A stretch of 60,252 bases of DNA, taken from IMG/VR virus record IMGVR_UViG_2562617057_000007; one strand, written 5' to 3'. Both the position numbers and the translations under genes were made by a program. Source of the DNA: a virus (Duplodnaviria > Heunggongvirae > Uroviricota > Caudoviricetes). Below the pieces are notes generated by a model. It did no database searches, was not told where the DNA came from, and saw nothing but the letters and a program-made list of their open reading frames with translations. How positions within the stretch are numbered: the first letter of the stretch is position 1; every line of letters begins with the position of its first letter. Below are positions 1 through 18,582 of this stretch, in pieces.

Positions 1-270
<270 letters not shown>

Positions 271-475
271 TTACCGTTAAATCATTTTAAAATCAGTAAG
301 TTGTATCGAGTTTATATGCTTTACTGTCATTAACTTACTGTATGTTGATCCAGTGTATTTAACCCTGATAAACTCAGTCCAGTAACACAAAGCCGCAACA
401 CATTGCATTTTGTCCCGTAGAAAAGACTTGTATGTGTGAGCTTGTTTTCTGCGCCTACGCAGATAAGGATTGAGA

Positions 476-1873
476 ATGCCGCGCACTGTAACACATAATC
501 CGGATAGCCCCAATAATGACGATGTTTTAGCCGCATCTGAAAAATGGGACGCCTGTAAACCCCCCTATACCAGCGCACACATGAAAATCTGTGTTGCTGC
601 CGCCAAAATCATCCTCGCTGCTTCCGGCGTGGCTCGTCGTTCCAAATACGAAAAAGAGAACTATCTCCGTATCGATTTCAGCAAAGCCGGTAAGGTTACA
701 TTTTACGCCGAGTATCCAAAAAAGATGGGCCTCAAAGGTAAAAAGCTTGGCGAGTGGCCGGAGCTCGCTATCCAGCTGGCGCGCGAAAAAGCACTAGGTA
801 TGGCTGACGGTGGACTGCGGGCAGAGTCCGTACATGCAGCGCTGGAAATGTACCGGGATGACCTCAAAGCCAAAGTCGCCCGGCAGAAGCTGAGCCCGGA
901 CAGTTTCACAACCTACGGGGTGCGTATCGACCGGATTAAAGCAACGTTCGGCGAGCGCGAGGTGTTCAGCGACGTAACATACAATCGGCTGGTGGAAGTA
1001 CTGGACGAGTGGATCGCCACTCGCTCGAACAATAACGCCCTGGAGTTGTTTGCCGAGCTCCGTCGGTTCTGGAAGTTCTGCGCACCTACTCTTTGCAACG
1101 GCCGCAATGTTGCCGCCAGTCTGCCAGATGATTATGTTTCCTCCCGCGTACAGAAACCTACCCCCACACGGCTTTTTACCGATATTGAATCAATCGCCCG
1201 ACTCTGGCTCAATGTTGCTGCCTGCACCTCTGTACACCAGAAGAATGCTGTTCGCTTCATGATCATCACCGGCGTTCGTCCGATTAATGTCCATAACCTG
1301 CGCTGGGACTACGTTCACGAGGAGACTGGCGAAATTGTTTATCCTGAAGGGGTTATCGGCATGCGAGGGGCTATGAAAACACAAAAGGCTTTCCGCCTGC
1401 CAATAACGCCGGAGATCCGGCGGATTATCGACGAGCAGAAAGCCTGGCGTGATTCAGTTCCTGAGTGCAACAGGGATTATGTATTTTTGCAGCCACGTGA
1501 TCCAATGCAGCCATTTTCAAAACGGTCACTGGATAAGCTGGTGAAAACATACAGCCCGGACGGGGCTGTAAAAGGAATAAAACATGATGGGACTGTTAAA
1601 GGGAAAGACGGTGCATTTAATACGATGTGCCGTAAATTCCTTAAGAGCAATGTTATTGCCTTGATGAAGGAAAGAGGCTATTCCCGATCAGACCGAAGGG
1701 AAATCAGCCTCCTTTGCCTTCACCACTCCAGCAAGTCAGATGACCCGATGGCAGAACATTACGACTTTTCTGATGAGATTTTACAGGAAGAGATTGCGTT
1801 AAAGCGCGAAGCTTTCGAGGCTCACGAGCGGAGCATACTTGCGCAGGTTGCATTGCTACGGCGGCGAGGTTAA
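476..1873 (+). CDS. phage-type tyrosine integrase
   Basis: about 465 aa; C-terminal region has integrase-like R (ITGVRPIN) and terminal HY motifs; AGGA-like RBS before ATG at 476 (ORF track begins at TTG 470); converges on an AlpA-like gene. Confidence 0.75.
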   Translation: MPRTVTHNPDSPNNDDVLAASEKWDACKPPYTSAHMKICVAAAKIILAASGVARRSKYEKENYLRIDFSKAGKVTFYAEYPKKMGLKGKKLGEWPELAIQLAREKALGMADGGLRAESVHAALEMYRDDLKAKVARQKLSPDSFTTYGVRIDRIKATFGEREVFSDVTYNRLVEVLDEWIATRSNNNALELFAELRRFWKFCAPTLCNGRNVAASLPDDYVSSRVQKPTPTRLFTDIESIARLWLNVAACTSVHQKNAVRFMIITGVRPINVHNLRWDYVHEETGEIVYPEGVIGMRGAMKTQKAFRLPITPEIRRIIDEQKAWRDSVPECNRDYVFLQPRDPMQPFSKRSLDKLVKTYSPDGAVKGIKHDGTVKGKDGAFNTMCRKFLKSNVIALMKERGYSRSDRREISLLCLHHSSKSDDPMAEHYDFSDEILQEEIALKREAFEAHERSILAQVALLRRRG

Positions 1874-2070
1874 TACTGGCTGCGACACTTTTGAATAAAA
1901 GCGTCGACATTTCGGCGCTCATAACGAACTACTTTTGCACTGAAACGAATTGGTGCCAGGATAGCCCGATGACGATGCTTAATATTCCACTCACATAGCG
2001 TTTTTTGTGTAATACCTAACTTTTGGCATACTTCATCCGGGGTGAGTAAATCGTCGGGTTTCTCGCTCAT
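1870..2070 (-). CDS. AlpA-family excisionase-like DNA-binding protein
   Basis: 66 aa small HTH protein (LTPDEVCQKLGITQKTLCEW), typical size and position next to an integrase; 4 nt overlap with upstream helicase gene. Confidence 0.7.
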   Translation of the reverse strand: MSEKPDDLLTPDEVCQKLGITQKTLCEWNIKHRHRAILAPIRFSAKVVRYERRNVDAFIQKCRSQY

Positions 2071-3461
2071 GCTATACCTCTCTTTTTCATGGCATCGAGC
2101 AGGATGTCCTGCACTGTTCGTTTTGAGTTGCGCCGCTCCATCACCATTTCGTCCATAGTGTCGGCAGCAATAATGTGGTGAATAAATACCGGACGATTGT
2201 GTCCGGCCTGTATCTGCCTGGTGGGGCCGATACGTTCAATAATTTGCTGATACTGCTCCAGGTCCCACCAGTGTGAGAAAAATACCAGTATATTTCCGCC
2301 GTCCTGCATGTTCAGACCGTGGCCCGCGCTGGCTGGGTGTGCAAAGAGAACAGGAATCTTTCCGGAATTCCAGTCACGTAGTGTCTGTGGATCCTGGTCG
2401 AGGTGACGACCGCGAGGAAATGCTTTAAGCAAGCGTTCAAGATCGTGTTTCCAGTGATAAGCAACCAGCACAGGCGCGCCAGCTGCTTCGGTCAGTATGC
2501 TGTCCAGCGCCTGTAGTTTGGTGTCATGCAGTTCTGACCAACTTCCGGTGTCGTCTGTGTATACTGCGCCACTGGCGATTTGAAGACACTTTTGCGTCTT
2601 TGCCGCAGCGTTTGGCGCTTCGATGCTTTCGCCGTTCAGCTCGAGGAACATTTCCTTTTCCATTTCACGATACTGCTGACGTGCCTTCGGCGGCATATCC
2701 ACGCGGACCACGTTATGAACGGGCTCTCTGACATCGAACCAGTCGGCCGCATCCAGCGAGAGGGTCACATCGGCTAACGCTCGCTGTATTTCAGCCTGTG
2801 AGTGAGCAAACGGCTCCAGTTTGGTCCAGCTCTGCCCCGGAAACTGTATCGAGTTGAACCAGCGTGAGGTAAACGCGCCGTAAGTGCGCCCGAGACGTTG
2901 CCCCTGGTCCACAAACCACGATTGTCCCCACAAATCTACCAGGCCGTTCGGTGCTGGCGTACCAGTGAGATTTATCCAGCGCCGGACATACTTATGCGCC
3001 ACTTTGCCCAGCGCCGCCGCGCGCTTACCACCACCTCGCAGCCGGAAGGATTTTAGCCGGGTGCTTTCATCTGGAATGACAGTACCGAACGGCCATTGTT
3101 CTCCCAATTCTTCAACCAGCCAGACAAGGTTATCGTAGTTGATGGTGAACACGCTTGCGTTGCTGTTCGCCAGCGCCGTAGAGCGCGCTTTGGCATTACC
3201 AACAATCGGCTGTACCTCGATATTGCGCAGATGCTCCCATTTCAGCGCTTCATCCGGCCATGTGCTTGCTGCAACGCGTAGCGGCGCGAGGACCAGCGCG
3301 GGGCGTGTTTCTGTTCCAGCCATGAAAAGATCTTCCAGCGTGGTGAGTGTTGCTACGGTTTTACCCATTCCCATCCCCGCCCAGATGTTGCCGCGCAGGG
3401 TTTCGATTTGGTGATTGATGATCAGGTCTTGATACGGGCGGGGGGTGAAAATTTGTCCCAT
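2067..3461 (-). CDS. SNF2-family helicase-like ATPase
   Basis: 464 aa; Walker A GMGKT, DExx box (IPDESTR), LTGTP motif, C-terminal helicase motifs (HPASAGHGLN, QQIIERIGPTRQ). Confidence 0.8.
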   Translation of the reverse strand: MGQIFTPRPYQDLIINHQIETLRGNIWAGMGMGKTVATLTTLEDLFMAGTETRPALVLAPLRVAASTWPDEALKWEHLRNIEVQPIVGNAKARSTALANSNASVFTINYDNLVWLVEELGEQWPFGTVIPDESTRLKSFRLRGGGKRAAALGKVAHKYVRRWINLTGTPAPNGLVDLWGQSWFVDQGQRLGRTYGAFTSRWFNSIQFPGQSWTKLEPFAHSQAEIQRALADVTLSLDAADWFDVREPVHNVVRVDMPPKARQQYREMEKEMFLELNGESIEAPNAAAKTQKCLQIASGAVYTDDTGSWSELHDTKLQALDSILTEAAGAPVLVAYHWKHDLERLLKAFPRGRHLDQDPQTLRDWNSGKIPVLFAHPASAGHGLNMQDGGNILVFFSHWWDLEQYQQIIERIGPTRQIQAGHNRPVFIHHIIAADTMDEMVMERRNSKRTVQDILLDAMKKRGIA

Positions 3462-3504
3462 AGTGTTTTAGCCAGTAGGGCGCGGGTAATCCCGCGCAAT
3501 AATG

Positions 3505-4311
3505 TCAGATTAGATCGGTGTAGTAGGTGAAGTTGCCAAACTGCGGATGTGTCCAGCGCTTGCGGTTACCTTTCGGCGGTGTCGATTCGTTTAACAGCTT
3601 TTGAGCTGCTTGTTCGATCGCTGGGAGCTTAACGAGCAATCCCCGAACACCGGTGTCTGAACGTACCGGTATCCTGGCGAAGCCGATCAATTTCCGGCAT
3701 GTTGAATCAGATAAACCTGTTTTCCATGCTGCTTTGCTGACGGGGACATATTCACCGTTACTGTGTGGTTGTGACTCTCTGACTTGTTGTTTTAAGTCTT
3801 CTACCCAGTTGGTTTCATGTCCCAGAGTTGAAAGCGTTACGTTTTGAACTTGCCGGGGAGCCATCACTTCGACAATTGCTTTCATCGTTGCGGATGCCGT
3901 AGCTTCTGCAACGACACGGGCAAACTGAACGATGTTGTCGTTTACCTGAATTGCAGGAGTTGGCACTGGTAATGATGCCGGACGAGGTTGCTCTAATTCA
4001 ATCTTCATCGCCTGCCACTGTTCGATGAGTGCCAGCCGGCGTTTTGCGTCGTAACCGGTGACGAGAGTCATGGAAAGATTTTCATCAAGCCAAATCTCGT
4101 CGATGACATCACGTCCCTTGTATTCTTTGCGCTTGATAATAAATCCTTTAAAATCATCATAATCCAAATCTGGACTATAGATTTGTAACTGTTCAAGCAT
4201 AGCCAGAATATCCCGTACAACATGCTTATGCTGTTTGCCAGTGACTTCTGCAATTTTCCGGCTGCCCATCATTGGTTGCTTGGTATCGTTTATCAGTGTT
4301 AAAGTATTCAT
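3505..4311 (-). CDS. Rha-family phage regulatory protein (antirepressor-like)
   Basis: N-terminal Rha signature GSRKIAEVTGKQHKHVVRDI; start placed at MNTLTL (ORF track extends to 4353). Confidence 0.7.
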   Translation of the reverse strand: MNTLTLINDTKQPMMGSRKIAEVTGKQHKHVVRDILAMLEQLQIYSPDLDYDDFKGFIIKRKEYKGRDVIDEIWLDENLSMTLVTGYDAKRRLALIEQWQAMKIELEQPRPASLPVPTPAIQVNDNIVQFARVVAEATASATMKAIVEVMAPRQVQNVTLSTLGHETNWVEDLKQQVRESQPHSNGEYVPVSKAAWKTGLSDSTCRKLIGFARIPVRSDTGVRGLLVKLPAIEQAAQKLLNESTPPKGNRKRWTHPQFGNFTYYTDLI

Positions 4312-4370
4312 GCTGTATTCTTCATTCAGTAAAAGATGCGCTGGTAGCTGCAACTATCAGCGCGTTTTGT

Positions 4371-4547
4371 TTATTCATCCCACGGCTTGTTTGCAGCTTC
4401 CCTTGCGGCCTGCTGCGCAAAATAAATCAATTCAAAAGCTAACTGCTCTCCTTTTTCCAGCGAACTGAGAAGTCTTGCTGTTTCCAGCATGTCCGCGATA
4501 TACCCGAAAATATCTGCCTGATGTAACTGCGTGATCTGAATAGCCAT
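4371..4547 (-). CDS. hypothetical small protein, first gene of leftward operon
   Basis: 58 aa from MAIQITQLH; GAGGT RBS 8 nt upstream; longer ORF to 4619 would read through the operator palindromes. Confidence 0.45.
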   Translation of the reverse strand: MAIQITQLHQADIFGYIADMLETARLLSSLEKGEQLAFELIYFAQQAAREAANKPWDE

Positions 4548-4563
4548 AGCGTTAACCTCGATA

Positions 4564-4627
4564 GAACCACGGTGGTTCATTTTTAGTAAACCACCGTGGT
4601 TCATTGATGTCAACACCACCGTGGTGC
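4564..4627. promoter_or_regulatory. three 15 bp operator-like palindromes in divergent promoter region
   Basis: GAACCAC-G-GTGGTTC (4564..4578), AAACCAC-C-GTGGTTC (4588..4602), ACACCAC-C-GTGGTGC (4613..4627), centres about 24 bp apart; overlapping candidate -35 TTGATG (4604..4609) and -10 CATAAT (4626..4631) for the rightward gene. Confidence 0.6.
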
Positions 4628-4661
4628 ATAATTTGGTGATTGAGTTTATGAGGTGTTTGCT

Positions 4662-5006
4662 ATGAGTCGTGAAGATGCACAGATGAAGATCCGTTTACCT
4701 GCGGAGCTGAAAGCGCAGTTAGAAAAAGCAGCTCTGGAAAATAAGCGGTCTATGAATGCGGAAGTACTCCATCGTCTCAAAGAAAGCTTTAATGTTTTAG
4801 TTCACATAACATATAAAGATTCCGAGGGGGAGTTATCAGATAGTAATACCTGGAAGCGTTTTTTGGAATCATCTGAACATGGTGATGAATATAAAAAAGG
4901 CTTTGTTAAGCTTGTCAAAGAAAAATATAAACTTGATAAGGAAAATGAGAGGTTATATAGCTTAATTATAAGCTATTTGAACCCCACAAAGAGTGAAGAT
5001 GATTAG
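4662..5006 (+). CDS. ribbon-helix-helix (Arc/MetJ-like) DNA-binding protein with AT-rich C-terminal extension
   Basis: N-terminus MSREDAQMKIRLPAELKAQLEKAALENKRSMNAEVLHRLKESF is a classic RHH fold signature; GAGGTG RBS 6 nt before ATG 4662. Confidence 0.7.
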   Translation: MSREDAQMKIRLPAELKAQLEKAALENKRSMNAEVLHRLKESFNVLVHITYKDSEGELSDSNTWKRFLESSEHGDEYKKGFVKLVKEKYKLDKENERLYSLIISYLNPTKSEDD

Positions 5007-5136
5007 TTTGTGTTTGTAAGTCTGAATAATATTTCTGCATTTACTGAACGCATATTTTTCTTTGCTGTTTTCTTTAACTCCTCCGCTAATGCGCGGGGGA
5101 CCCGTAATTTAAACTGTAAGTGCTCATCTGATTTTT

Positions 5137-5406
5137 TCACAATATTCCCTCCAGATTTTTGCTATCCAGCACCACTACGGTAAAGCCCAGTTTTCGCAGA
5201 CGTTCATGTTCGCGCAATTGGTCAGGCCGTGGTGGCTTGCCGGGAGATTTACATTCAACGAAAACGATACGACCACCTGGTAGCAGGACAATGCGATCCG
5301 GTACCGAGCGGTGACCGGGAGATACAAACTTAAAGGCCACTCCGCCAGCTTTTTTCACTTCAGCGACGAGGTGCTTTTCGATAAGGCTTTCACGTTCATA
5401 GGCCAT
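5137..5406 (-). CDS. VRR-NUC domain nuclease
   Basis: PD-(D/E)xK-type motif region DRIVLLPGGRIVFVECKSPG; start placed at MAYERE. Confidence 0.75.
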   Translation of the reverse strand: MAYERESLIEKHLVAEVKKAGGVAFKFVSPGHRSVPDRIVLLPGGRIVFVECKSPGKPPRPDQLREHERLRKLGFTVVVLDSKNLEGIL

Positions 5407-5695
5407 CTGAATCCCACTCTTCAAAAAGCACATTCAATTCCAGTTTCTCTGCCAACGCGTTTTCTGCACGTGCGCCAGCAGAGTACTCCCACTCTTTGAG
5501 CATATAAATCGTATCGGCACAGCGAAGCATTGCGAGGCAGATGTCCATATACTGAGCCTGTGTCAAACCATTGGGTAAAGTTGCGGGGTTAAGCACAACA
5601 TATCCCTTGTCCGTTAGCCTCTTTGCTGCGGAATGAAAAGCCGGGCGGTTAAATTGTTCGTAACCGCTCATAGGCCCGGCAACGTAAACGATCAT
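5396..5695 (-). CDS. DUF4406 (nucleoside deoxyribosyltransferase-like) phage protein
   Basis: N-terminus MIVYVAGPMSGYEQFNRPAFHSAAKRL matches DUF4406 pattern. Confidence 0.7.
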   Translation of the reverse strand: MIVYVAGPMSGYEQFNRPAFHSAAKRLTDKGYVVLNPATLPNGLTQAQYMDICLAMLRCADTIYMLKEWEYSAGARAENALAEKLELNVLFEEWDSDGL

Positions 5696-5907
5696 TCTTC
5701 GACCGCCTTACGCTTTTCACGCATATTCTGCATCAGGCAAAAATCAGATCTGCGTTCACTCCATTCCTGATTCAGTTCGTGATGTGATTCGCGGTTGGCT
5801 TTTGCCCAGGCCTTCGCTGCCCGGTCATATTCGCCGGACTGCTCAAGGCGCAAGGCCTCCCTCGCAGCCCGGTAATAAAGTGGGCTGTCCCGATATTTAA
5901 ATGACAT
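5692..5907 (-). CDS. hypothetical phage protein
   Basis: 71 aa ORF translationally coupled (4 nt overlap) to downstream gene; no recognised motif. Confidence 0.5.
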   Translation of the reverse strand: MSFKYRDSPLYYRAAREALRLEQSGEYDRAAKAWAKANRESHHELNQEWSERRSDFCLMQNMREKRKAVEE

Positions 5908-5959
5908 AGCTTTCGAGTCCTGTAAAAAGCCCCTGACTGAGCAGGGGCGAATTGAAGGA

Positions 5960-6724
5960 TTAACGGGGTAACTCTGGTGGAATATATCTGCCGATGCGGT
6001 CTTCTATGGTCGGCAGAATGCACATGCTGTCGTTAAAGCGGTCATGCAGTTTGTAGACCAGTTTCGAATCCATTTTTTCGAGAGCAGGCATTAACTGCGC
6101 TCGCCAGATTTCATTAATACGTCGGAAGTTATGACAGACGGCGCGGAGATTGTTGATGAACATTTCCTTCTCTGCGTCATTGATTGCTGTCTGCACTTTC
6201 TGAATACGCTTTGTGCTGCCGTTCCGGTAAAAGTCCTTCTGCGCAGCGACAGCCTCATCCACGGATGGATAACACCCTACGTAAACGCTTTTCTCTCCGT
6301 TCCATGCGTAGGCTCTGTACGGGTTGTATTTGCTCTGGTGATGGTAAACCATCTTCGGCAGGCACTCCCTGTGCGGCGCCAGTATCGTGGAGGACTGCTG
6401 GTGCAGTTTGCGTTCGCATTCGATGAAGTATCGGCGTATCTGGCGACCTTTTTCGTTACGCTCGACCATCGCCAGTTCTTTGGCTGTATCGAGGGTGAGG
6501 TGGTAGTCCTTACAAAGAACATTTTTACGCTTTCCAGTTTTGGAAAACGTTACGATATAATCATGATTTTCAACGAATTTATAGTCTGCAATTCGTGATG
6601 TAATCCATGCTGCAAACACTTTCCCTACCCCAAGGAATGCGTGCAGATCGCGAGCATTGCAGAGCAGGGTGATTTCGTTGGCGATAGCGCCGTTGAAAAC
6701 GGGGATGAGTTGAGCTGCCATCAC
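5960..6724 (-). CDS. AntA-domain antirepressor-like protein
   Basis: AntA signature DYHLTLDTAKELAMVERNEKGRQIRRYFIECE in N-terminal half. Confidence 0.8.
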   Translation of the reverse strand: MMAAQLIPVFNGAIANEITLLCNARDLHAFLGVGKVFAAWITSRIADYKFVENHDYIVTFSKTGKRKNVLCKDYHLTLDTAKELAMVERNEKGRQIRRYFIECERKLHQQSSTILAPHRECLPKMVYHHQSKYNPYRAYAWNGEKSVYVGCYPSVDEAVAAQKDFYRNGSTKRIQKVQTAINDAEKEMFINNLRAVCHNFRRINEIWRAQLMPALEKMDSKLVYKLHDRFNDSMCILPTIEDRIGRYIPPELPR

Positions 6725-6884
6725 AGTTACCTCTAACGGTGAAATTCACCGCCACCACTGAGTTGCAAATCTCATATGGGTGGCGAACTGACGAGGTTTG
6801 CAATACCGGCGTTAGAGGAAACCGGCGCGCCGAAGCGCCCCCGCCAGCCCGCCATAATGCGAACGTGGCAAAGCTTGCGACAAT

Positions 6885-6904
6885 AAAAAAGACGCTGGCG
6901 CGTC
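6885..6904 (-). terminator. candidate rho-independent terminator
   Basis: minus-strand hairpin GACGC-GCCA-GCGTC followed by TTTTTTATT; lies downstream of the PolA fragment. Confidence 0.4.
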
Positions 6905-7202
6905 TGGTGTCGCCCCTAACAATTCCGGGTTGCAAATCCCGATCTCCATTTGGGAGATTCGGTGAGCATAAACCGGAAGGGGGTGATGAGTCAATATCGG
7001 GGTAGCAGGGCGGTCGGGTACTTGAACACCGCAGCAAGTCGGCCCGTATCCTTAGCCTTTCGGCTGTTTTTCGGTATACGCGCTACCCGACCATATCTGA
7101 AAATGGACATAAAAAATCCGCATGACTGACGGGCGCGGTTTCCGCTTGCTGTGGTGTGTTCAGCACCATGAAGCGGAATATACCTATTGGTCATCGCGGA
7201 TG

Positions 7203-8135
7203 TCAATCTTTCCGGTATCTGTAAGATTCGAATCCTCCGGCGTTTAGTGGAATGCTCGTGGCCCAGTCAGGAACGGTTGCCAGTAACTGGCTGACATGTT
7301 CTGCTGAGTAATCGGGTGAGTCAGGGGCCTCACTTATAATTTCATCGTGTACCGTCAGCACAATGCTGTAACCGGCATCTTCGATAAGCGGCATGTTTCC
7401 GGCCAGAACGTCGCGGGCGGCCGCCTGGGTGACGTTCTCCACCAGCTTTCCGCCGTAGGTTTTGAGTCGTTGCCATTTACGCGAATAAGAGTTAACACCC
7501 ATATAGGTGATATTCCCTTTTTCGATAACCGGAGACGGGTAGCATACAGCGCGTCCGGATGGTAGCTGTATGCGCAGCCACGCGCCATCGCGGCGGATTT
7601 TAAGATAACCGCAATACAATGTTTTTTGCGGTGTGGCGATTGCAGTGCGGACGGTGCGCTCCAGTTCGTACCAGAAATCGCAGGTCGCCGGGTGCGCCCT
7701 GCGCCAGAGACGTTTAAGTGAGTCGCAGGCGATAAATACCCGTTCAGAAAGGCCGTAGGTTGACTTACGTTTAACCGATTCGTAGTACCAGCTTTTCGCC
7801 TCGCGGATAACATCGCGGGGAATGTTTGGCAGTGCGGCGTTCGCCAGCTCGTCGAGATCGAGACTGTAAACCAGTGCAAAAGTGATGAAGGCCGACACAC
7901 CACCACCGTACCCGCAGTTGTGAACGATTAAATGTCCTGAGTCGGTTTTAATCGTGAATCTGTTTCGAGGCCCCGCATGTGCAATGTCGTAAACATCGCT
8001 CCAGCTCGTCGATACGTTTTTGCAGGTCTGCGATTTTTCTTCTGTTGCGGTTATTGTCTGCTTTGGAGACGAACTGGATATTACCCGGTTCGTAGCCTTT
8101 GTTATTGTCGATGCGATCCATTTCCAACTACCCAA
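7203..8135 (-). pseudogene. C-terminal fragment of a family A (PolA-type) DNA polymerase
   Basis: Contains Pol I motif B-like GYGGGVSAF, NxxQG-AAD-like VTQAAARDV and motif C LTVHDEI; N-terminal exonuclease and most of the polymerase domain absent; first about 40 codons of the ORF lack homology. Confidence 0.6.
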
Positions 8136-8297
8136 ACTTCATTGGCTGAAAGTGTTGGCATGCGCCAGCAGTCTGTTCAATACCTTGAGTCCGGACGCGC
8201 CACCCGTACCGGTTTCATCCTTGAATTGGCAAAAGTTCTGAAATGCGATCCTGACTGGCTATTAAACGGCGAAAATTCAGAGCAGCAAAAGGTGTAA
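8100..8297 (+). pseudogene. HTH XRE-family regulator fragment (helix 1 missing)
   Basis: TQTSLAESVGMRQQSVQYLESGRATRTGFILELAKVLKCDPDWLLNGE is a helix-turn-helix core, but upstream in-frame sequence is Cys/Phe-rich and non-HTH-like; no convincing start. Confidence 0.4.
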
Positions 8298-8300
8298 CCC

Positions 8301-8793
8301 ATGGCTGATAACAAACCATGGGGAGCTACGCCCGATGAGTGGTTCCACTTCGATCTGGTGTTGGGGATGACAGACAGGCTTTTACCTGTGGTGTCCAATC
8401 CCTGTGCAGAACTGTCGCCTAATAGCAAGCTGTCTCATAATTTCGGCAAAACTCCCTGTCGCTACAATGGCCAACGTAAGGTCGTTGGTATAATTCGCTG
8501 CGTATACAGACCTGTCGTTGCAGGTCAAAGGTAATATTGGCGCATCAATGAAGGCTCAACTTGGCATCAGGATTGAACGAGAATTGTACAGTGAAGATGT
8601 TACTTACTGTGATTCAGCAGTTCAGTTGATGTGGACACTCTTTCAGGCAGGTGTTCTGGCCGAACGAAGAGCTACCAGCGTTACGCTTCCTGCGCTGAAG
8701 GCAAAGCCGGATAGCTTCTACGATGCGGGTTATAACGAAGGTATTCAGGACTGTCGTAAACATCTGACGGCATCAGGCATCAAGGTAAGATAA
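8301..8793 (+). pseudogene. hypothetical phage protein split into two overlapping frames (8301..8534 and 8518..8793)
   Basis: two consecutive ORFs in different frames overlapping by 17 nt, suggesting a frameshifted gene; function not recognised. Confidence 0.35.
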
Positions 8794-8860
8794 AAAATAG
8801 TTGTGGAATTCCAAAAAGCCGATTAGCCTGATATCCGTTGAAAACAGTTCATCACGAAGA

Positions 8861-8884
8861 GGCTTCCGCAAGGGGGCCTTTTTT
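8861..8884 (+). terminator. rho-independent terminator
   Basis: GGCTTCC-GCAA-GGGGGCC hairpin (GNRA-type loop, two G-U pairs) followed by TTTTTT. Confidence 0.55.
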
Positions 8885-9221
8885 ATTGCCCCATTCTGGG
8901 GAAAAGTTAATAAAACAGGGCTTTCGCTGCGAAAAAACGCTATGCAGTTTTTGCCCTTTTTTATGCACCTTTTATTCACTCGAATTTCGTCATTCTGGAC
9001 CACTTAAGTTGATTAAATAGGCCTTTCATCGCAAATCTATTGCGAGCGGGGATCGTGTGGTTCCTATAATGTATATTATGTTAAATCATGTTGACTGTTA
9101 ACTTACTTCATGAACCAAGATGGTTCGCATAAAATCATAGGGTTAAGTCCCCCCTTAATCTTTCGTTTGCTGGCATTATGTTTAAGAGCTATTTTCTTCA
9201 TATCCATGAACTTCTCTGAGG

Positions 9222-10592
9222 ATGTCTCAGATGTATATACTCGACCAGTTGAGTGTTGCTCCAAACCGGCGGATTTGGACATTGGTTGACGCCACTACTA
9301 ACTTACCGCTTCTGTTTCCACTTCTCTTTCTCATTGATCGCTTGTCTTTACGTTCCGAATCCACGCAGTCATCTACGCTACAGGCTCTAAAATTTTTTTA
9401 TGAGTACTGGTATCAAAAACATGATGTTACTTTCTGTTTGAGCTTCCATCTGTCTGGATACAATCCTTCGATTGCAATTAGTGAGATTGAAGCATTTCTT
9501 CATTATCTTGAATCAGGAAAGCTTGTGTTGCCTACACTCGGACGCGCTGTAATTAGCAAGCACAATACAAATATTAATCATGTACATGCAGTCTGCCGTT
9601 TTATCAACTATCTGATCAATACTTACGTTTCTCCTCGTTATATGGATGGTACCCCAAAAGAACTTTCTCGTTACGCTTTACAATTATCCAGGCGTTTGTC
9701 GGCCTATCGTTCGGATTTTCGACCCAGCAAGCAAAAGCATTCAAACAAACATTTTAATAGCCTTACAGCAGACATGGTCAGGAAATTTTATGAGATTATT
9801 AGACCAGAATCGTCTTCCAAGCCAAATCCTATTAATCCCTTCCCTACTGGAGAAATTCAATTCAGAAATTATTTAATCTGTCGCCTTCTTTTGAATTATG
9901 GTTTGCGTGTAAGTGAATTGCTTTTGTTAGAAAAAAACTCAATTAAACCTAACATCAAGGGCGTACAGTTCAGTATCATAGTGACGTCTGTAGATGATGA
10001 TGTTAGAGATCCAAGAAAGAGATTACCGTCATTAAAAAACTCATGGGCGCATCGAGTTTTAGCGTTAGACATAAATGATTACAACCACTTAAAAACATAC
10101 ATTGATAAAATAAGGAAAAAAACCTCTCATAGTTTCATATTCACTTCAACTAAAAATAACACTCCACCACTATCGTATCACTCTATATATGATATTTTCT
10201 CAAAAATTGATTGTGCTTTCAAAAAAGAGTACCCGCAATTCAGTGATGAAGAAAGCATTGATTCTGTAGTTAGCATAACCCCACACGTAGCTCGCCATAC
10301 ATGGGCTTATTTGATCTTAAAGAGAGTCTATACTGATAAATATCAGTCTGTTATGAGAAGTTGCCAGCTTGCAGGAGTTGATTTCGCTATTGCAGGTCTG
10401 ATGAGTGAAGCCAAAGATGAGCTCCGTCTTTTAGGTGGATGGAGCCATAATAGCCGCATGCCAGAACTCTATGCCCGCCGTTTTCTTTCTGAGCGAGCTA
10501 ATTTTTCCAATCTCACGCGTATTGCTGCTGATGCCTCAGAAGATGATTTTTTTTCATCTATACATCAAGCGTTTAGGGAAACGACCAAGTGA
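9222..10592 (+). CDS. tyrosine recombinase-like protein 1
   Basis: 456 aa; GLRVSE (box I Arg), HVARHTWA, GGWSH, ELYARRF (catalytic Tyr). Confidence 0.8.
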   Translation: MSQMYILDQLSVAPNRRIWTLVDATTNLPLLFPLLFLIDRLSLRSESTQSSTLQALKFFYEYWYQKHDVTFCLSFHLSGYNPSIAISEIEAFLHYLESGKLVLPTLGRAVISKHNTNINHVHAVCRFINYLINTYVSPRYMDGTPKELSRYALQLSRRLSAYRSDFRPSKQKHSNKHFNSLTADMVRKFYEIIRPESSSKPNPINPFPTGEIQFRNYLICRLLLNYGLRVSELLLLEKNSIKPNIKGVQFSIIVTSVDDDVRDPRKRLPSLKNSWAHRVLALDINDYNHLKTYIDKIRKKTSHSFIFTSTKNNTPPLSYHSIYDIFSKIDCAFKKEYPQFSDEESIDSVVSITPHVARHTWAYLILKRVYTDKYQSVMRSCQLAGVDFAIAGLMSEAKDELRLLGGWSHNSRMPELYARRFLSERANFSNLTRIAADASEDDFFSSIHQAFRETTK

Positions 10593-12139
10593 ATAAAATC
10601 TTAGAGATAGAAAGCGAAGATAAGCATGTCTTTTTTTCACGTGAACAAATGATAAAAATAAAAAGTCTTTACATCCCTTCTAAAATACACTTGAGGTCAG
10701 CTGATGTTTTTGATGACAAGAATATATTTGCAGAGACTAATGATTGGGTGTTCCATTATTCAGGTAGCCAGTCACACATTAATTTCAAAACGGATGATTA
10801 CACCACAAAAATAATGAAGTATATATTATTCCATTATGCATCTTCAAAGTCTCCTGGGACTATATATCGTGTGCATCGTGCATGGATAGGCGCAATTGAA
10901 TATACTTCGAAACAAGGAATGTTTAACTTTCAATTGTTAAGATCTTTCCTTGAAAAGGAAAGTGTATTGCCCACACATTTTTTCTATATTATTTTTGGCC
11001 TTAAAATTCTTTGTATAGATGAATTTCCGGGTTTTACTTTAGATGACTACGAAGACCTTGAATTCATTCCTCGCCCTAATTCAAATGATTGGAGTGTATA
11101 TCAAAACATAGATAATATCTTTGAACCAGTTGAAAAGAACATGATCAGCAAAGGCCTTTTTGAAATGGCTACCGCCATATCACGAGGCAGAAATTACAAT
11201 CTGGTAGATCTTCGCAATGCCACTGTTTTGGGTCTATGTTACGTCACAGGTGGCCGTCCAGTTCAGTTAGCTAAATTGGCTGCTGGTGACTTTCGAATCG
11301 ATACTTGTAATACGACTACAGGGTTGGTTCGTTATAGCGTTCTTTTACCTTATGCTAAACAAAGGCACGTCACTACTGATCGGTTGATTCTGGCGCTCCC
11401 GCCGGAAATCGGTGTACTGGTTAACCATTATATAGATAAAGCAAGATTGTTGCCTACCGATAAGATGTTTGATATGGGGGCATCAGCAACTAAGTTTGTC
11501 TCTCAGTCTATTAGACAAACCATTCTAAACTTCAGCCCCCCTGATTATCAAGATGCCGTTGCTCGCGGAGAAGCCGCTCCCCCATCAATCACGCCAACTG
11601 ATTTACGCCACAACGTTGGTCACTCACTGGCTATGCAAGGAGTAAGTGCCGAAGAGATTGCTCACATTCTTGGTCATTCATCCTTAGTTGTAGCAAAGCA
11701 CTACATCTTGGCGACACCGGCCTTGGCCTTGATACGCGCTAAAGCACTAGGTTCTAACCCCGTGTGGCAAAACATGGTGGCTATGATGATGACAGGGAAG
11801 TTGGTCCCTTCAAAAGAATGGCAAGGTCGACGAGTAGTTGGCATGGTTGGTGATCGATTACACTATGAGATTGGTGGCTGTGCGAGAGGCGATGACGAAT
11901 GCCCTTTCTGTGAAGTCCGTTGCTGCTATGGTTGCTTATATTATCGCCCTTTCCTTGATGGCCAACACCAGGATGTACTAGATAGCATCTTGAAAGAAGT
12001 CGATGAGCTGATAGCTGTGTCAGATAGTGTAGGCAATGCTCACAATCCACTAATTTCTATCCACGAGACGACGCAAATAGAGATCAAGTCAGTGATTGCC
12101 CGTTGTCATTTGCATAACGTCAGAGGTTGTGGGAGATGA
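10589..12139 (+). CDS. tyrosine recombinase-like protein 2
   Basis: 516 aa; GGRPVQ, DLRHNVGHSLA, HILGHSS, KHYI; GTG start overlapping stop of upstream gene. Confidence 0.8.
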   Translation: MNKILEIESEDKHVFFSREQMIKIKSLYIPSKIHLRSADVFDDKNIFAETNDWVFHYSGSQSHINFKTDDYTTKIMKYILFHYASSKSPGTIYRVHRAWIGAIEYTSKQGMFNFQLLRSFLEKESVLPTHFFYIIFGLKILCIDEFPGFTLDDYEDLEFIPRPNSNDWSVYQNIDNIFEPVEKNMISKGLFEMATAISRGRNYNLVDLRNATVLGLCYVTGGRPVQLAKLAAGDFRIDTCNTTTGLVRYSVLLPYAKQRHVTTDRLILALPPEIGVLVNHYIDKARLLPTDKMFDMGASATKFVSQSIRQTILNFSPPDYQDAVARGEAAPPSITPTDLRHNVGHSLAMQGVSAEEIAHILGHSSLVVAKHYILATPALALIRAKALGSNPVWQNMVAMMMTGKLVPSKEWQGRRVVGMVGDRLHYEIGGCARGDDECPFCEVRCCYGCLYYRPFLDGQHQDVLDSILKEVDELIAVSDSVGNAHNPLISIHETTQIEIKSVIARCHLHNVRGCGR

Positions 12140-14498
12140 AAAAAATATAGAGAATTTTGACACTTTTATCGTAGAACAGAAAGCTTGGTTCGAAGAGAAT
12201 CTGGCAGCAGATTTTGCAGAATCATGGGATAGCCTTGTCTGGATATGTGGGAAAAAAGGTTCCGGCTGGTTACGAGGCAATGGTGTTAATGTATTGCGAT
12301 TTGATGAGATTAACCGGCTAAAAGGAATCGATGAACACTATACTGTATCCGATACTTATCAGTTGTTTATGAAAGCCATGCTGGTACTCGTCTATCGAGG
12401 CAGAAATCGCAGCATCTCCCCTGCGGTTGCTATTGCAACTCTGATTATTTTGAAACGCTGGTACTGTGCGCTGATTAAATTAACCGGGCAGACTCATCCC
12501 ATCTATCTGGCTACAGATGTTGTTCGTAGTGCAATGGATACTATGAGTGCAGCATCCAAGCCAGGTGATCCTAACATAGCCAACTACAAGGGGCGTTGCG
12601 TTAAGATTCAAAAATTAGTAAATCATCATGCTTTCACATTGGTAACTCTACATTATGTGTCCGACGAAAATTACACTAACCGGACCAATTTGACCCAGAA
12701 AGCCCGGGAAACAATAGCCCTTAAACACAAGGACAGGCTCGATGATACAGTCACTGATGGTGAAGATGCACTTATTACAATTCGAGGATTCCTCAATATC
12801 GTGTCACTTATCCAGCGTGTAGAAAACGGCACTGAAAAGATAGCGCTCAATTGCCTTCTGCTACTCATCATCACGGGTTTTCGGTCCATTGAAGCATTCA
12901 ATCTCAGGCTGGATGCGTTGGTCAAACGAAAGATAGATAACGCTGATATCAGCAGACGTCTACGCGATAAAGGGTTGCCGGATTATTTTCTTGGCATTCG
13001 CTATGTTGGTGTTAAGGGAGCTGGTGAGCGAACACATTGGGTCGAACCCTTAGCTGTTCCTTTAGTTGAAAACATATTCAAATCGGTTAAGTCACTAACA
13101 TGTGAGTTACGAAAGCATCTCATAAACTTACGTTTAAAAGGATTTGCTGATTATTTACCGGAGGCGATCAGTGATATTGCAGGTGAACTTGTTGAACTTG
13201 ATGATATTGTAGAACACATAGCCCAATCCTCATCAGAGCTTCGGGGGCGTGCGGGATTACGTGATAAAGCATCAAAAGCGTTAGCGAAACGAGGCTGTAT
13301 TCCGACTGAAGTCATTCTTTTTCCAGGTAATGAAAAAAGGAAATATTATTCAAAATCAGACCTTAGTCTTTACCTTAAAAATGAATTTGGTGATAGCAGC
13401 GCAAATACTCCCTGTACTCACTCATGGGTAGAAAACGGCAAAAGATTTGAGATTATGTATGAGGATTTATTGTTCCTTTACCCCAAAGGGTCTATGACGT
13501 TAAAGAGAGCATTGGGGCTAAAAGCAACACCTTTACCACTGAGTAATGCTGGCGTAAACAAGTTTCTCGGTAACGTTGACGGCTATGCTTCAGTCTTCAG
13601 TAAATACAGGCTACTCGAAGATGACGGTCGTCCTACCCAGCTTCGCACTCATATTCCTCGTCACAATATAAACACTTTTCTCGCTATTGCTGAAATTTCA
13701 GACCACTTACAAGCCATGTTGATGGGGCGTGTTGATATTACTCAAAATAAACATTACCAGCATCTGGCTCTTAAGGAGCGCCGAAAGGCTGCTTCTCTTA
13801 TTCCGTTAGTTCCGATCATACAGGAGCAGACAACACCAATTACTATTGACGCTGATACACCGCTCGATGTGGTAAAACAAAGTGGTATGATGATATTTAG
13901 CAGTACGAAGAATCTGGAAACCAACATAAAGGCGAACCTACATACCTTCGATAATCGTGACGATGTTGCAGGATTCATTGAGGCGTCGTTAGACGATGGA
14001 TTATTCGAAGACATAGCCGCTGCGTTCGAAGATATTAGTAAAAATGAAGGGCCATCGCAAGCGACTGAAATGGTGCATAGGCACGCGGTGCTGCATCCAT
14101 TGAAATTGGGCTCCTGCATGAGAGACGTAAACTTGTGGGGATGCCCTTATCGAATGAAGTGTCAGGCATTGAAGCCCTGTGAGCATTTCACGTTAACAGG
14201 TCGTATTGATGAATACTCCACAATTGAAGCCAAAGGTCGTGCATTAAACGAGGCTACGTTTGCTTTTGAACAGTATACCGCGACCTTTCCGGGTAACCAG
14301 CTAATGCAGGGCAATATCGAAGAAAATCTAGCACAACTAGATGCCTTAACTAAGCAATTACGCAGCCGCTCAAACTCGCTGGAAGCAATCCCCTCTCAGG
14401 TGGTCCTGTCCGGAGAGATAAAAGTAGAAGGTGAAATTCGTACTCTGGCTCAACTATTTGCCCTCGAGTACCAAAAAATCAAACAAGGAGAAGACTGA
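12096..14498 (+). CDS. tyrosine recombinase-like protein 3 (large, 800 aa)
   Basis: TGFRSIE, IPRHNINTFLA, MGRVDITQNKHYQH motifs; start uncertain (ATG 12096 or GTG 12129). Confidence 0.75.
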   Translation: MPVVICITSEVVGDEKNIENFDTFIVEQKAWFEENLAADFAESWDSLVWICGKKGSGWLRGNGVNVLRFDEINRLKGIDEHYTVSDTYQLFMKAMLVLVYRGRNRSISPAVAIATLIILKRWYCALIKLTGQTHPIYLATDVVRSAMDTMSAASKPGDPNIANYKGRCVKIQKLVNHHAFTLVTLHYVSDENYTNRTNLTQKARETIALKHKDRLDDTVTDGEDALITIRGFLNIVSLIQRVENGTEKIALNCLLLLIITGFRSIEAFNLRLDALVKRKIDNADISRRLRDKGLPDYFLGIRYVGVKGAGERTHWVEPLAVPLVENIFKSVKSLTCELRKHLINLRLKGFADYLPEAISDIAGELVELDDIVEHIAQSSSELRGRAGLRDKASKALAKRGCIPTEVILFPGNEKRKYYSKSDLSLYLKNEFGDSSANTPCTHSWVENGKRFEIMYEDLLFLYPKGSMTLKRALGLKATPLPLSNAGVNKFLGNVDGYASVFSKYRLLEDDGRPTQLRTHIPRHNINTFLAIAEISDHLQAMLMGRVDITQNKHYQHLALKERRKAASLIPLVPIIQEQTTPITIDADTPLDVVKQSGMMIFSSTKNLETNIKANLHTFDNRDDVAGFIEASLDDGLFEDIAAAFEDISKNEGPSQATEMVHRHAVLHPLKLGSCMRDVNLWGCPYRMKCQALKPCEHFTLTGRIDEYSTIEAKGRALNEATFAFEQYTATFPGNQLMQGNIEENLAQLDALTKQLRSRSNSLEAIPSQVVLSGEIKVEGEIRTLAQLFALEYQKIKQGED

Positions 14499-14941
14499 TG
14501 CGGGGTAAAGAATTGGATACTCAGATTGAGCATGAGCTCCAGCTGATGTTGATTGAAGGGTTTGATAAATCGCCAATTTCAGCTAAAAGCTTACACGCCA
14601 GACTTAAGTCAAAAGGCATCATCAATGGCGGCTTAAGTACATTAAGTAGCATTGAACGAAAACGTCTTATTGCAGCCTATGTCGATCAACAGCTATCTCC
14701 CCTAAATCTTCGCCCCAAAGAAAAGCAGCAGTATGTGAATCGTAAGACCCGTCAGGCTTTGCTTGGTCGTAATCAGCAGCTTCAGGAAGAGAACAAAGAG
14801 CTGCGCGAACAGCTAGCACAGAATACCTTGTCATTAATTGAAATTGTCAAAGCGGTAAAAATCAATACGGTTATACCGGTAGAAAGCCTTCTTGCTCCGC
14901 ACTTGATCATGGAGCTACACGAAAGGAAAAAAAATCAATGA
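14498..14941 (+). CDS. small coiled-coil protein, fourth gene of recombinase operon
   Basis: 147 aa; ATG overlaps TGA of upstream gene (TGATG); heptad-like QQLQEENKELREQLAQN segment. Confidence 0.6.
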   Translation: MRGKELDTQIEHELQLMLIEGFDKSPISAKSLHARLKSKGIINGGLSTLSSIERKRLIAAYVDQQLSPLNLRPKEKQQYVNRKTRQALLGRNQQLQEENKELREQLAQNTLSLIEIVKAVKINTVIPVESLLAPHLIMELHERKKNQ

Positions 14942-14971
14942 TAGGTATAGCGCTATATTTGTACAACAAAG

Positions 14972-15166
14972 TCATGAATAAACGCCTTGCTCTATTCGAA
15001 AAATGAGCATGGCAACTTTCAATACCCCCTCTTCTGAGTCCATTATTTCAGAGGGCATTTTCCACTGTAATGCTCTGTTTGGTTCATTGCACCAGTTTAA
15101 TGCTGCACTTTCGTTACCTTCAAAAAGATCAATAGCCTTTTGTATAACATCATTTTTTGTCAGCAT
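14972..15166 (-). CDS. DUF2384-like antitoxin C-terminal domain (Xre/MbcA/ParS type)
   Basis: ends with ...ALQWKMPSEIMDSEEGVLKVAMLIFRIEQGVYS, matching the DUF2384 RIExGVY signature; overlaps upstream HTH ORF in a different frame. Confidence 0.6.
   Translation of the reverse strand: MLTKNDVIQKAIDLFEGNESAALNWCNEPNRALQWKMPSEIMDSEEGVLKVAMLIFRIEQGVYS

Positions 15167-16612: not shown

Positions 16613-18582
<1,970 letters not shown>

What the first reader, a model, noticed from the sequence alone, without database searches (positions are those of the whole stretch)
7203..8297. Back-to-back truncated genes: PolA-type polymerase C-terminus and an HTH regulator lacking helix 1
The minus-strand ORF carries polymerase motifs B and C (GYGGGVSAF, LTVHDEI) but lacks everything N-terminal, and its first 40 or so codons show no polymerase similarity. 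The plus-strand HTH reading frame begins without helix 1 and without a convincing start. The two fragments meet around 8015..8110, consistent with a deletion or inversion breakpoint that destroyed the prophage replication and regulation genes.
Basis: partly seen in the sequence, partly recalled or inferred. Interest (0 to 1): 0.4.

Follow-up and report, generated by a model that had tools for sequence, protein, structure and literature searches.

The report
Prophage deletion scar with intein remnant
Two gene stumps in a decayed E. coli prophage meet at the scar of an 8.6-kb deletion that removed its replication and immunity genes, and the odd non-polymerase start of the polymerase stump is the tail of an intein that carried a nuclease-like gene in a second reading frame.

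Summary
Window 1..8129 is 99.99% identical to a prophage next to yfhL in E. coli O121 strain 201805972. At 8129|8130 the window jumps 8,559 bp further along that prophage, in the same orientation, so this is a deletion and not an inversion. Lost are the first 667 codons of a 975-codon family-A DNA polymerase ORF, six other complete genes of the leftward early operon, an oppositely oriented hypothetical gene, the LexA-family repressor and the first 19 codons (helix 1) of a 74-aa Cro-like HTH gene. A second deletion 362 bp to the right (8491/8507, with 15 bp of filler) truncates the DUF5906 primase gene and a phiTE_015-family gene. The polymerase N-terminus is nowhere else in the 60 kb. All remnants are best read as pseudogenes.

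One correction: 73 leading codons, not about 40, are non-polymerase. Codons 3-73 are the C-terminal end of an intein (…VYDIAHAGPRNRF…LIVHN|C) inserted in polymerase motif B. Intein-less alleles read straight through the site. Inside that intein, in the -1 frame, intact relatives encode a conserved HNH-like protein, and its last 60 codons survive at 7948..8129. This two-frame arrangement recurs in Jerseyvirus polymerases and in metagenomes. The architecture was first reported in 2025 for actinobacteriophages. The window feature itself is ordinary.

The parts
7203..7916 (-). C-extein remnant of a phage family-A DNA polymerase (237 codons plus stop). It starts with the +1 Cys (codon 7916..7914) followed by GYGGG (end of motif B) and contains motif C (LTVHDEI).
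   Evidence: 100% identical to residues 739-975 of the O121 polymerase ORF. phrog_7766 E=1e-69. Motif B alignment to Pol I 8jrb.
7917..8129 (-). C-terminal 71 codons of a 287-aa intein. These are off-frame linker codons followed by splicing blocks F/G, SDVYDIAHAGPRNRFTIKTDSGHLIVHN.
   Evidence: The O121 polymerase reads …GKVLELA|CIAPDT…TPDH…LIVHN|CGYGGG, while the intein-less allele reads GKVMELGLGYGGG. A profile of the splicing blocks hits solved inteins: Neq Pol split intein E=5e-5 and Spl DnaX mini-intein E=1e-3.
7948..8129 (-). Last 60 codons plus stop of an HNH-like gene nested in the intein in the -1 (+2 offset) frame: (L)EMDRIDNNKGYEPGNIQFVSKADNNRNRRK…CTCGASKQIHD*.
   Evidence: The intact 250-aa ORF in O121 is L001 9249..10001. 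It hits phrog_374 'HNH endonuclease' at E=4.7e-37 and has 163 homologues. The AF2 model of a homologue has pLDDT >90 over the core.
8129..8130 (.). Deletion junction 1. 8,559 bp of the O121 prophage are missing here. The join is blunt, with 0 bp of microhomology.
   Evidence: blastn: window 1..8129 = L001 1302..9430, and window 8130..8491 = L003 34840..34479. Junction sequences were compared. No repeats or IS ends were found.
8130..8297 (+). 3' 55 codons plus stop of a 74-codon Cro-like HTH_3 gene. Helix 1 (first 19 codons), the start codon and the upstream region are deleted.
   Evidence: Pfam HTH_3 E=9.5e-8, profile positions 11-55 only. Intact protein translated. 100% nucleotide identity to O121.
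8301..8491 (+). First 63 codons of a 753-codon DUF5906 (primase/helicase-type) replication gene, cut off at junction 2.
   Evidence: The O121 CDS at L003 32408..34669 is annotated 'DUF5906 domain-containing protein'. Window 8130..8491 is 100% identical to L003 34840..34479.
8492..8506 (.). Junction 2, with 15 bp of filler (AATTCGCTGCGTATA) that matches neither flank. About 3.9 kb of the O121 prophage are missing here: most of the DUF5906 gene, a hypothetical gene and the antiterminator Q gene, plus an IS1A that O121 carries.
   Evidence: The filler is unique in the window.
8507..8793 (+). phiTE_015-family gene lacking its first 55 nt.
   Evidence: Window 8507..9086 = L003 30532..29953 at 99.5%. 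The O121 CDS is at L003 30246..30587.

Best explanation
The region is a decay scar in a cryptic prophage integrated next to yfhL. A single 8,559-bp illegitimate (blunt, no microhomology) deletion fused the 3' 927 nt of an intein-bearing family-A DNA polymerase gene (minus strand) to the 3' 168 nt of the divergently oriented Cro-like HTH gene (plus strand). The deletion removed several things:
- the polymerase exonuclease, thumb and palm motif-A part, and the Lys of motif B;
- the N-terminal three quarters of the intein;
- the BRO-N, DUF2815, HNH and DUF2800 genes and two hypothetical genes of the same leftward operon, plus one oppositely oriented hypothetical gene;
- the LexA-family repressor gene;
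- by inference, the intergenic region that holds the divergent early promoters.

A second deletion 362 bp to the right removed most of the DUF5906 primase gene and the Q antiterminator gene. What is left cannot work. The polymerase stump lacks catalytic motif A and the O-helix Lys, and it has no credible start: a junction-created TTG, no Shine-Dalgarno sequence, and no in-frame ATG before the distal part of the ORF. The HTH stump lacks helix 1 and its start codon.

The 71 codons that precede the polymerase sequence are the C-terminal end of a motif-B intein. Overlapping them in the -1 frame is the 3' end of that intein's nested HNH-like gene.

Shown here: the coordinates, identities and junctions, the absence of the N-terminal half from the window, and the intein signature. 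Inferred: that the remnants are not expressed, and the order and mechanism of the two deletions.
For:: window 1..8129 matches the O121 prophage at 99.99%, then 8130..8491 matches at 100% a stretch 8,559 bp further on, in the same orientation. VL7S7 shows the same 8,559-bp distance.
gene content of the missing stretch.
polymerase residues 1-667 have no tblastn match anywhere in the 60,252-bp window.
junction sequences, 0 bp microhomology.
intein-plus and intein-less alleles differ by a precise 287-codon insert that begins with Cys and ends with His-Asn followed by Cys.
the splicing-block profile hits solved inteins.
the insertion lies in motif B.
the HTH remnant lacks the first 19 codons.
no sigma-70-like promoter near the junction on either strand.
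Against: None of the 5,426 complete E. coli genomes holds either junction, and a 34-mer spanning junction 1 is absent from the GTDB representative genomes. The join therefore rests on this one assembly and cannot be confirmed independently here. The absence of expression was not tested. A 106-aa plus-strand ORF (7977..8297) and the 310-aa minus-strand ORF are formally open.
Confidence: 0.9

Rival explanations
1. The 310-aa ORF is a natural stand-alone product: either a short PolA-like family, or the C-terminal half of a 'fractured' polymerase gene (intein C-fragment plus C-extein) that is joined to an N-terminal half by trans-splicing.
For: PHROGs holds short 'DNA polymerase' families (phrog_7766, 186 positions; phrog_10285, 321 positions). 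The database contains 279-311-aa proteins that begin with the intein tail (P0001, P0005-P0008). One metagenome contig (L008) has the intein N- and C-parts in different frames. Split-intein 'fractured genes' with a free-standing nuclease gene between the halves are known (Dassa et al. 2009, PMC2677866, abstract as listed).
Against: The window ORF is 100% identical to an uninterrupted 975-codon ORF right up to the junction. The break lies in the middle of the nested HNH-like gene and linker, 43 codons upstream of block F, not at a split-intein boundary. There is no ATG or Shine-Dalgarno sequence before block F. The N-terminal half is absent from the window. P0007's apparent start is a gene-caller choice inside an ORF that runs to the contig end.
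Confidence: 0.03
2. The junction is an assembly artefact (a chimeric join of two prophage segments), or the product of an inversion or a more complex rearrangement rather than a simple deletion.
For: No other complete E. coli genome has the junction. The prophage is rich in IS elements and repeats: IS66 copies in the window, and IS1, IS600 and IS421 in the O121 relative.
Against: Both flanks keep the orientation and order they have in the intact prophage, which excludes an inversion. The junction is not in repeated DNA, and there are no repeats or IS ends at either side. Assemblers rarely join unique sequences without shared k-mers. A second independent junction lies 362 bp away in unique sequence.
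Confidence: 0.05

Closest known systems
Prophage next to yfhL in E. coli O121 strain 201805972 (NZ_CP119441.1, about 3,560,000-3,611,000), and the same prophage in strains VL7S7 and VL40
   Same: 99.9-100% nucleotide identity on both sides of the junction. Same integration site, the same intein-bearing polymerase allele, and the same HTH and DUF5906 genes.
   Different: The relatives keep the 8,559 bp (about 8.0 kb in VL40) and the roughly 3.9 kb that the window lacks. They lack the window's ~22.8-kb type I R-M/integrase cassette, and the O121 copy carries extra IS insertions.
Jerseyvirus 'intein-containing DNA polymerase precursor' (e.g. Salmonella phage vB_SalS-S10, OL770276; SE2)
   Same: A family-A polymerase with an intein in motif B. 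The same kind of HNH-like ORF (about 50% aa identity) is nested at a +2 offset inside the intein, with both frames open.
   Different: The insertion point is 4 residues upstream (RQIGKA|C…HN|CELGLGYEGG versus RQIGKVLELA|C…HN|CGYGGG). These are lytic siphoviruses, not a chromosomal prophage. Their copies are intact, whereas the window keeps only the last quarter.
Non-canonical actinobacteriophage inteins with an endonuclease VII-like homing endonuclease 'in reading frame 3 relative to the intein' (Gosselin, Arsenault & Gogarten, bioRxiv 10.1101/2025.01.02.630785)
   Same: Same architecture: splicing domains in the extein frame and a nuclease gene in frame 3 between the splicing blocks. DNA polymerase is among the four host protein types that the paper lists for its non-canonical inteins as a group. 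The in-frame reading of the central part has no recognisable fold.
   Different: Different hosts (Actinobacteria phages versus enterobacterial phages and prophages and marine metagenomes). Apparently a different nuclease family: here PHROG 374 'HNH endonuclease', about 190-aa core, with no Pfam hit. Homology between the two nuclease sets was not tested.
ShiLan-type 'hidden' out-of-frame HNH insertion in phage methylases (Arsenault et al. 2025, PMC11855218)
   Same: A nuclease gene in a second frame of an insertion that stays open in the host gene's frame.
   Different: The ShiLan insertion has no splicing domains. Here canonical intein blocks flank the nuclease gene.
Fractured genes with split inteins and a free-standing nuclease gene (Dassa et al. 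2009, PMC2677866)
   Same: A free-standing type nuclease gene sits between the intein N- and C-parts.
   Different: In the intact relatives the intein frame is continuous (one ORF), not split. The window fragment results from a deletion, not from a split-gene design.

Membership tests
Family-A DNA polymerase (Pfam PF00476) | Motif A (Dx..E.R, catalytic Asp) | tested here: not met
   Present in the intact homologue (VVSDLSNIEGRMLAWL aligned to IADFSQIELRIAA of Pol I 8jrb) but upstream of the break. It is absent from the window ORF and from the whole window.
Family-A DNA polymerase (Pfam PF00476) | Motif B (RxxxKxxxFGxxYG, O helix) | tested here: not met
   Only the terminal G-Y-G survives, after the +1 Cys. 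The R…K…(F)G part lay N-terminal of the intein and is deleted.
Family-A DNA polymerase (Pfam PF00476) | Motif C (VHDE) and overall homology | tested here: met
   LTVHDEI is present. The Pfam hit of the fragment is sub-threshold (12.3 bits against a cut-off of 34.3, profile positions 306-370). The full-length O121 and intein-less proteins pass (46.3 and 53.2 bits). phrog_7766 E=1e-69.
Intein (HINT splicing domain) | C-terminal His-Asn followed by a Cys/Ser/Thr +1 residue, preceded by block F | tested here: met
   Window 7917..8000 (-) encodes SDVYDIAHAGPRNRFTIKTDSGHLIVHN, followed by Cys (7916..7914). This is conserved in 5 diverged elements.
Intein (HINT splicing domain) | N-terminal Cys1 (block A) and block B TxxH | tested here: not met
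   Present in the intact O121 copy (CIAPDTLVLT…TPDH) but deleted from the window. The window therefore holds an intein remnant, not an intein.
Intein (HINT splicing domain) | Precise in-frame insertion at a conserved site, with intein-less alleles reading through | tested here: met
   GKVLELA|[287 aa]|CGYGGG versus GKVMELGLGYGGG. The C-extein DNA is in 159 of 5,426 E. coli genomes and the intein in 4.
Intein (HINT splicing domain) | Sequence or fold similarity to solved HINT domains | tested here: met
   The profile of the splicing blocks hits the Neq Pol split intein (5oxx, E=5e-5), the Spl DnaX mini-intein (7cfv, E=1e-3) and the Mtu RecA mini-intein (E about 0.01). The AF2 model of the intein frame was unusable (pLDDT 50, 3 sequences), so the fold itself was not tested. 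Protein splicing is not testable with these tools.
HNH (beta-beta-alpha-Me) homing endonuclease | Membership of an HNH family by profile | tested here: inconclusive
   phrog_374 'HNH endonuclease' E=4.7e-37, and weaker hits to other HNH and endonuclease VII PHROGs. Sources name homologues 'HNH endonuclease'. There is no Pfam HNH hit in any of 21 members and no PDB sequence hit.
HNH (beta-beta-alpha-Me) homing endonuclease | Catalytic His of the first strand, and the beta-beta-alpha-Me fold | tested here: inconclusive
Cro/C1-type HTH (Pfam HTH_3, PF01381) | Complete five-helix domain including helix 1 | tested here: not met
   The score passes the cut-off (32.4 bits against 23), but only profile positions 11-55 are matched. 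The first 19 residues, MTSSTLASRIKERRKALGI, of the intact protein are deleted.

The most novel reading that the evidence does not exclude
The remnant derives from a widespread but apparently undescribed family of polymerase motif-B inteins in phages of Gram-negative bacteria (Jerseyvirus, this E. coli prophage, marine metagenomes). Their nuclease-like gene is read in the -1 frame.

The intein frame is kept stop-free across the roughly 190-codon nuclease core in five elements with only about 33% intein identity. Synonymous resampling gives P=0.0007-0.017 for this in each element.

The conserved intein motif D-G-E-E-W supplies the start signal of the nested gene. A GGAG from the G-E codons was found in 4 of the 5 elements, and an ATG (GTG in one element) sits on the E-W codons in all 5. 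One peptide motif would then serve both splicing-domain structure and translation initiation of the selfish nuclease.

The window itself would be only a fossil of this.
Probability: 0.5. Interest if true: 0.5.

Novelty: new member of a known kind. Interest (0 to 1): 0.3.

Why it matters
For the window itself, the result explains two odd ORFs as pseudogenes. The prophage has lost its repressor, Cro-like gene, polymerase, primase and Q antiterminator, so it cannot replicate or be induced. This matters for annotation: the 310-aa 'DNA polymerase' and the HTH ORF should be flagged as partial.

The by-product is of wider interest. In this search the intein DNA was found in only 4 of 5,426 complete E. 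coli genomes. The intact relative shows that the recently described architecture of an intein with its nuclease gene in another reading frame also occurs in enterobacterial phages, with a different nuclease-like family. It also offers a concrete, testable idea of how the nested gene is translated.

Tried and rejected
1. Pfam and NCBIfam scans of the intein and of the nested ORF found nothing at threshold. The only trace was TIGR01445 intein_Nterm at E=0.02.
2. Single-sequence phmmer of both proteins against the PDB found nothing useful. The HNH-frame profile against the PDB gave only zinc-ribbon noise.
3. The AF2 model of the intein frame, built from the only 3 admissible homologues, had pLDDT 50 and was not used for a fold search.
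5. A search for the junction 34-mer in the GTDB representative genomes gave 0 hits. No complete E. coli genome spans either junction.
6. I looked for microhomology, repeats or IS ends that could explain the deletions and found none.
7. I looked for a -1 slippery heptamer conserved upstream of the nuclease core. One occurs in E. coli only (TTTAAAC) and none in the other four elements, so programmed frameshifting is not supported.
8. I considered the short PolA-like proteins P0005-P0008 as a natural stand-alone family. This was rejected: P0007 is an ORF that runs to a contig end with a gene-caller start, and P0005 and P0006 begin with the same off-frame linker as the window ORF.
9. Inversion was rejected because both flanks are collinear with the intact prophage.

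Full report
WHAT IS IN THE WINDOW. The minus strand carries a 310-codon ORF at 7203..8135 with a TTG start. The plus strand carries a 106-codon ORF at 7977..8297 whose last 55 codons are an HTH. Pfam gives HTH_3 at E=9.5e-8 but matches only profile positions 11-55 of 55. For the minus-strand ORF, Pfam gives only a sub-threshold DNA_pol_A hit over the motif C region. PHROGs places residues 136-310 in DNA-polymerase families (phrog_7766, E=1e-69).

COMPARISON WITH AN INTACT RELATIVE. A megablast against 5,426 complete E. coli genomes found three strains that match window 6700..8129 at 99.9-100% and then stop. The annotated region of E. coli O121 201805972 (NZ_CP119441) shows a prophage integrated next to yfhL. 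Its polymerase is annotated as a 944-aa 'DNA polymerase', and the full ORF from a TTG start is 975 codons.

A blastn of the whole window against the fetched loci gives four blocks:
- Window 1..8129 matches L001 1302..9430 at 99.99%.
- Window 8130..8491 matches L003 34840..34479 at 100%.
- Window 8507..9086 matches L003 30532..29953 at 99.5%.
- The late genes of the same prophage resume at window 31899.

In record coordinates, the first jump skips 3,594,840..3,603,398, which is 8,559 bp. Strain VL7S7 shows the same distance, and VL40 about 8.0 kb. Orientation is preserved on both sides, so this is a deletion and not an inversion.

The missing stretch holds the following:
- polymerase codons 1-667;
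- six further complete genes of the same leftward operon: BRO-N, DUF2815, HNH, DUF2800 and two hypothetical genes;
- one oppositely oriented hypothetical gene;
- the LexA-family repressor gene;
- the first 19 codons of the 74-codon HTH gene.

The join is blunt. The window reads CCATTTCCAACT|ACCCAAACTT. The polymerase side continues …CAACT|TTGGG in O121, and the HTH side is preceded by …GGTATA|ACCC, so there is no microhomology. No repeats or IS ends flank it. A tblastn of the full polymerase against the window finds only residues 668-975 at 8129..7206, so the N-terminal part is nowhere in the 60 kb.

A SECOND JUNCTION. The window follows the intact prophage for only 362 bp after junction 1. 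This stretch holds the HTH 3' end (8130..8297) and the first 63 codons of the 753-codon DUF5906 replication gene (8301..8491). Then come 15 bp that match neither flank (AATTCGCTGCGTATA, 8492..8506). The window resumes 55 nt inside the phiTE_015-family gene at 8507. About 3.9 kb are missing, including the antiterminator Q gene. Four genes are therefore truncated within 1.6 kb.

THE NON-POLYMERASE LEADER IS AN INTEIN REMNANT. The O121 polymerase is 287 residues longer than the 687-aa allele of strain CFIAFB20190157. The intein-less allele reads RQIGKVMELGLGYGGGVSAF. The O121 allele reads RQIGKVLELA|CIAPDTLVLT…TPDHQVLT…SDVYDIAHAGPRNRFTIKTDSGHLIVHN|CGYGGGVSAF. It has an N-terminal Cys, a TxxH block, a C-terminal His-Asn and a +1 Cys, which is the intein signature as I know it from established work on inteins.

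An alignment of the intein-less allele to Pol I (PDB 8jrb) pairs RQIGKVMELGLGYGGG with RQLAKAINFGLIYG. The insert therefore sits in motif B, five residues after the invariant Lys. A profile of the splicing blocks from five elements hits solved inteins: the Neq Pol split intein (E=5e-5), the Spl DnaX mini-intein (E=1e-3) and the Mtu RecA mini-intein (E about 0.01).

The window keeps intein codons 217-287 (7917..8129) and the C-extein (7203..7916). The first two codons of the ORF (TTG GGT, 8135..8130) come from the other side of the junction. The leader is therefore 73 codons long, not about 40, and the junction is at 8129|8130, not at 8015..8110. The intein DNA occurs in 4 of 5,426 complete E. 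coli genomes, while the C-extein DNA occurs in 159. A database protein, P0001, carries the same intein tail on a different C-extein allele.

A SECOND READING FRAME. In the window, the -1 frame of the intein remnant reads MEMDRIDNNKGYEPGNIQFVSKADNNRNRRK…* (7948..8127). In O121 this is the end of a 250-codon ORF lying wholly inside the intein (L001 9249..10001). That ORF hits phrog_374 'HNH endonuclease' at E=4.7e-37.

The only full-length homologues of the intein frame among 5.8 billion proteins are three metagenome proteins at 33-34% identity. All three contigs have the same layout: the intein frame is open, and a 233-246-codon homologue of the HNH-like ORF lies at a +2 offset.

Alignments show where each frame is conserved. 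The intein frame is conserved only in its first ~92 and last ~30 residues. The +2 frame is conserved from FG.LTV to the end.

I resampled synonymous codons of the nuclease core with each element's own codon usage. This leaves the intein frame stop-free in only 0.07-1.7% of trials per element, with a mean of 3.5-6 stops. The observed count is 0 stops in all five elements, while the third frame has 9-27 stops. Both frames therefore appear to be kept open by selection.

The HNH-like ORF has 163 homologues and tblastn matches in 315 phage records. Of these, 149 are Salmonella phages, and the top-listed Salmonella hits are Jerseyvirus-type genomes whose matches lie inside CDSs annotated 'DNA polymerase' or 'intein-containing DNA polymerase precursor'. 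In vB_SalS-S10 the ORF is at a +2 offset, and the insertion point is four residues upstream of the E. coli one.

A start codon in the +2 frame (ATG in four elements, GTG in one) falls on the conserved intein codons E-W. In four of the five elements a GGAG from the G-E codons lies just upstream. This suggests internal initiation. A conserved slippery heptamer was not found.

WHAT IS KNOWN. Inteins whose nuclease gene lies in 'reading frame 3 relative to the intein' were reported for actinobacteriophages in 2025, with an endonuclease VII-like nuclease, and described there as previously unreported (bioRxiv 10.1101/2025.01.02.630785). An out-of-frame 'hidden HNH' without splicing domains was reported in phage methylases (PMC11855218). 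I found no description of this arrangement for enterobacterial phage polymerases in the searchable library. That is not proof of absence, because the library is incomplete.

FUNCTION OF THE WINDOW FEATURE. There is most likely none. The polymerase stump lacks motif A and the motif-B Lys, and has only a junction-created TTG without a Shine-Dalgarno sequence. The intein stump lacks Cys1 and block B. The HNH-like stump begins just before its DR motif. The HTH stump lacks helix 1 and its start codon. No promoter-like site lies near the junction. The divergent early promoter region presumably lay between the repressor and Cro-like genes, which are deleted (inference). With the repressor, Cro-like gene, polymerase, primase and Q gone, the prophage is cryptic.

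RIVALS. A natural short PolA family, or a split-intein half, is rejected for four reasons. The ORF is identical to the continuous gene up to a break that lies mid-linker. There is no start before block F. The N-terminal half is absent from the window. The look-alike short protein whose contig I inspected, P0007, is a contig-end artefact. An assembly artefact cannot be excluded without reads. It is unlikely, because both junctions lie in unique sequence.

VERDICT. The feature is ordinary. The added value is the recognition of the intein and nested-gene fossil, and of the two-frame intein family it comes from, which is a new member of a kind described only recently. Interest 0.3.

Noticed in passing
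window 9067..31913: A ~22.8-kb cassette sits between the two prophage pieces. It holds two site-specific integrases (one at 9222..10592) and a type I restriction-modification system. It is 99.9% identical to a ~14-kb stretch of E. coli G3/10 and of O19:H7 730V1, and in the window it is interrupted by IS66 copies (15785..16513, 18640..20616, 20643..23338). The flanking prophage matches overlap by about 10 bp in O121 coordinates, which suggests site-specific insertion with a short duplication.
   Followed up: partly
L001 9218..10078 (O121); L004, L005, L006; L007 2971..3714: In intact relatives the intein frame and a -1-frame HNH-like ORF are both open over about 750 nt. This holds in five elements with only about 33% intein identity. 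The start codon of the nested ORF falls on the conserved intein codons E-W in all five, and a GGAG from the G-E codons lies upstream in four of them.
   Followed up: yes
L005 and L006 (metagenome contigs): Two of the related inteins sit in a different, unidentified host protein (…LPN.P.E|C…HN|CY..AR.LCW..ID…), not in a polymerase. The intein and nested-gene unit has therefore moved between host genes.
   Followed up: no
L008 2038..4165 (ENA metagenome contig): This is a variant at the same polymerase site as in E. coli (GKVIFLA|CFAPDT). Here the intein N-domain is in frame with the HNH-like domain, and the intein C-block plus C-extein lie in another frame. It could be a frameshifted copy, a sequencing error or a split arrangement. 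The Salmonella phage SS3e 'HNH endonuclease' (P0091) shows a similar N-domain fusion.
   Followed up: partly
window 5924..6398 and 7103..7207: The 3' part of the antirepressor (Ant) gene is 92% identical to the 3' part of the BRO-N gene that lies in the deleted stretch of the O121 prophage. The ~105 bp just downstream of the polymerase stop are 90% identical to a stretch just upstream of the O121 DUF2815 gene. These are internal paralogous segments of the prophage and are not at the deletion end points.
   Followed up: no
E. coli RMDEC465 NZ_CM177019 4,624,974..4,626,409: This strain has an intein 100% identical to the O121 one, but its polymerase C-extein matches the window only from position 7342 upward (99.3%) and diverges at the 3' end. 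That is consistent with the intein having moved between polymerase alleles.
   Followed up: no
window 43326..44375 compared with L003 11392..15055: The window's copy of the prophage lacks the IS600 and IS421 insertions that split the DUF3383 gene in O121 strain 201805972. The two copies have therefore decayed independently from a common ancestor.
   Followed up: no
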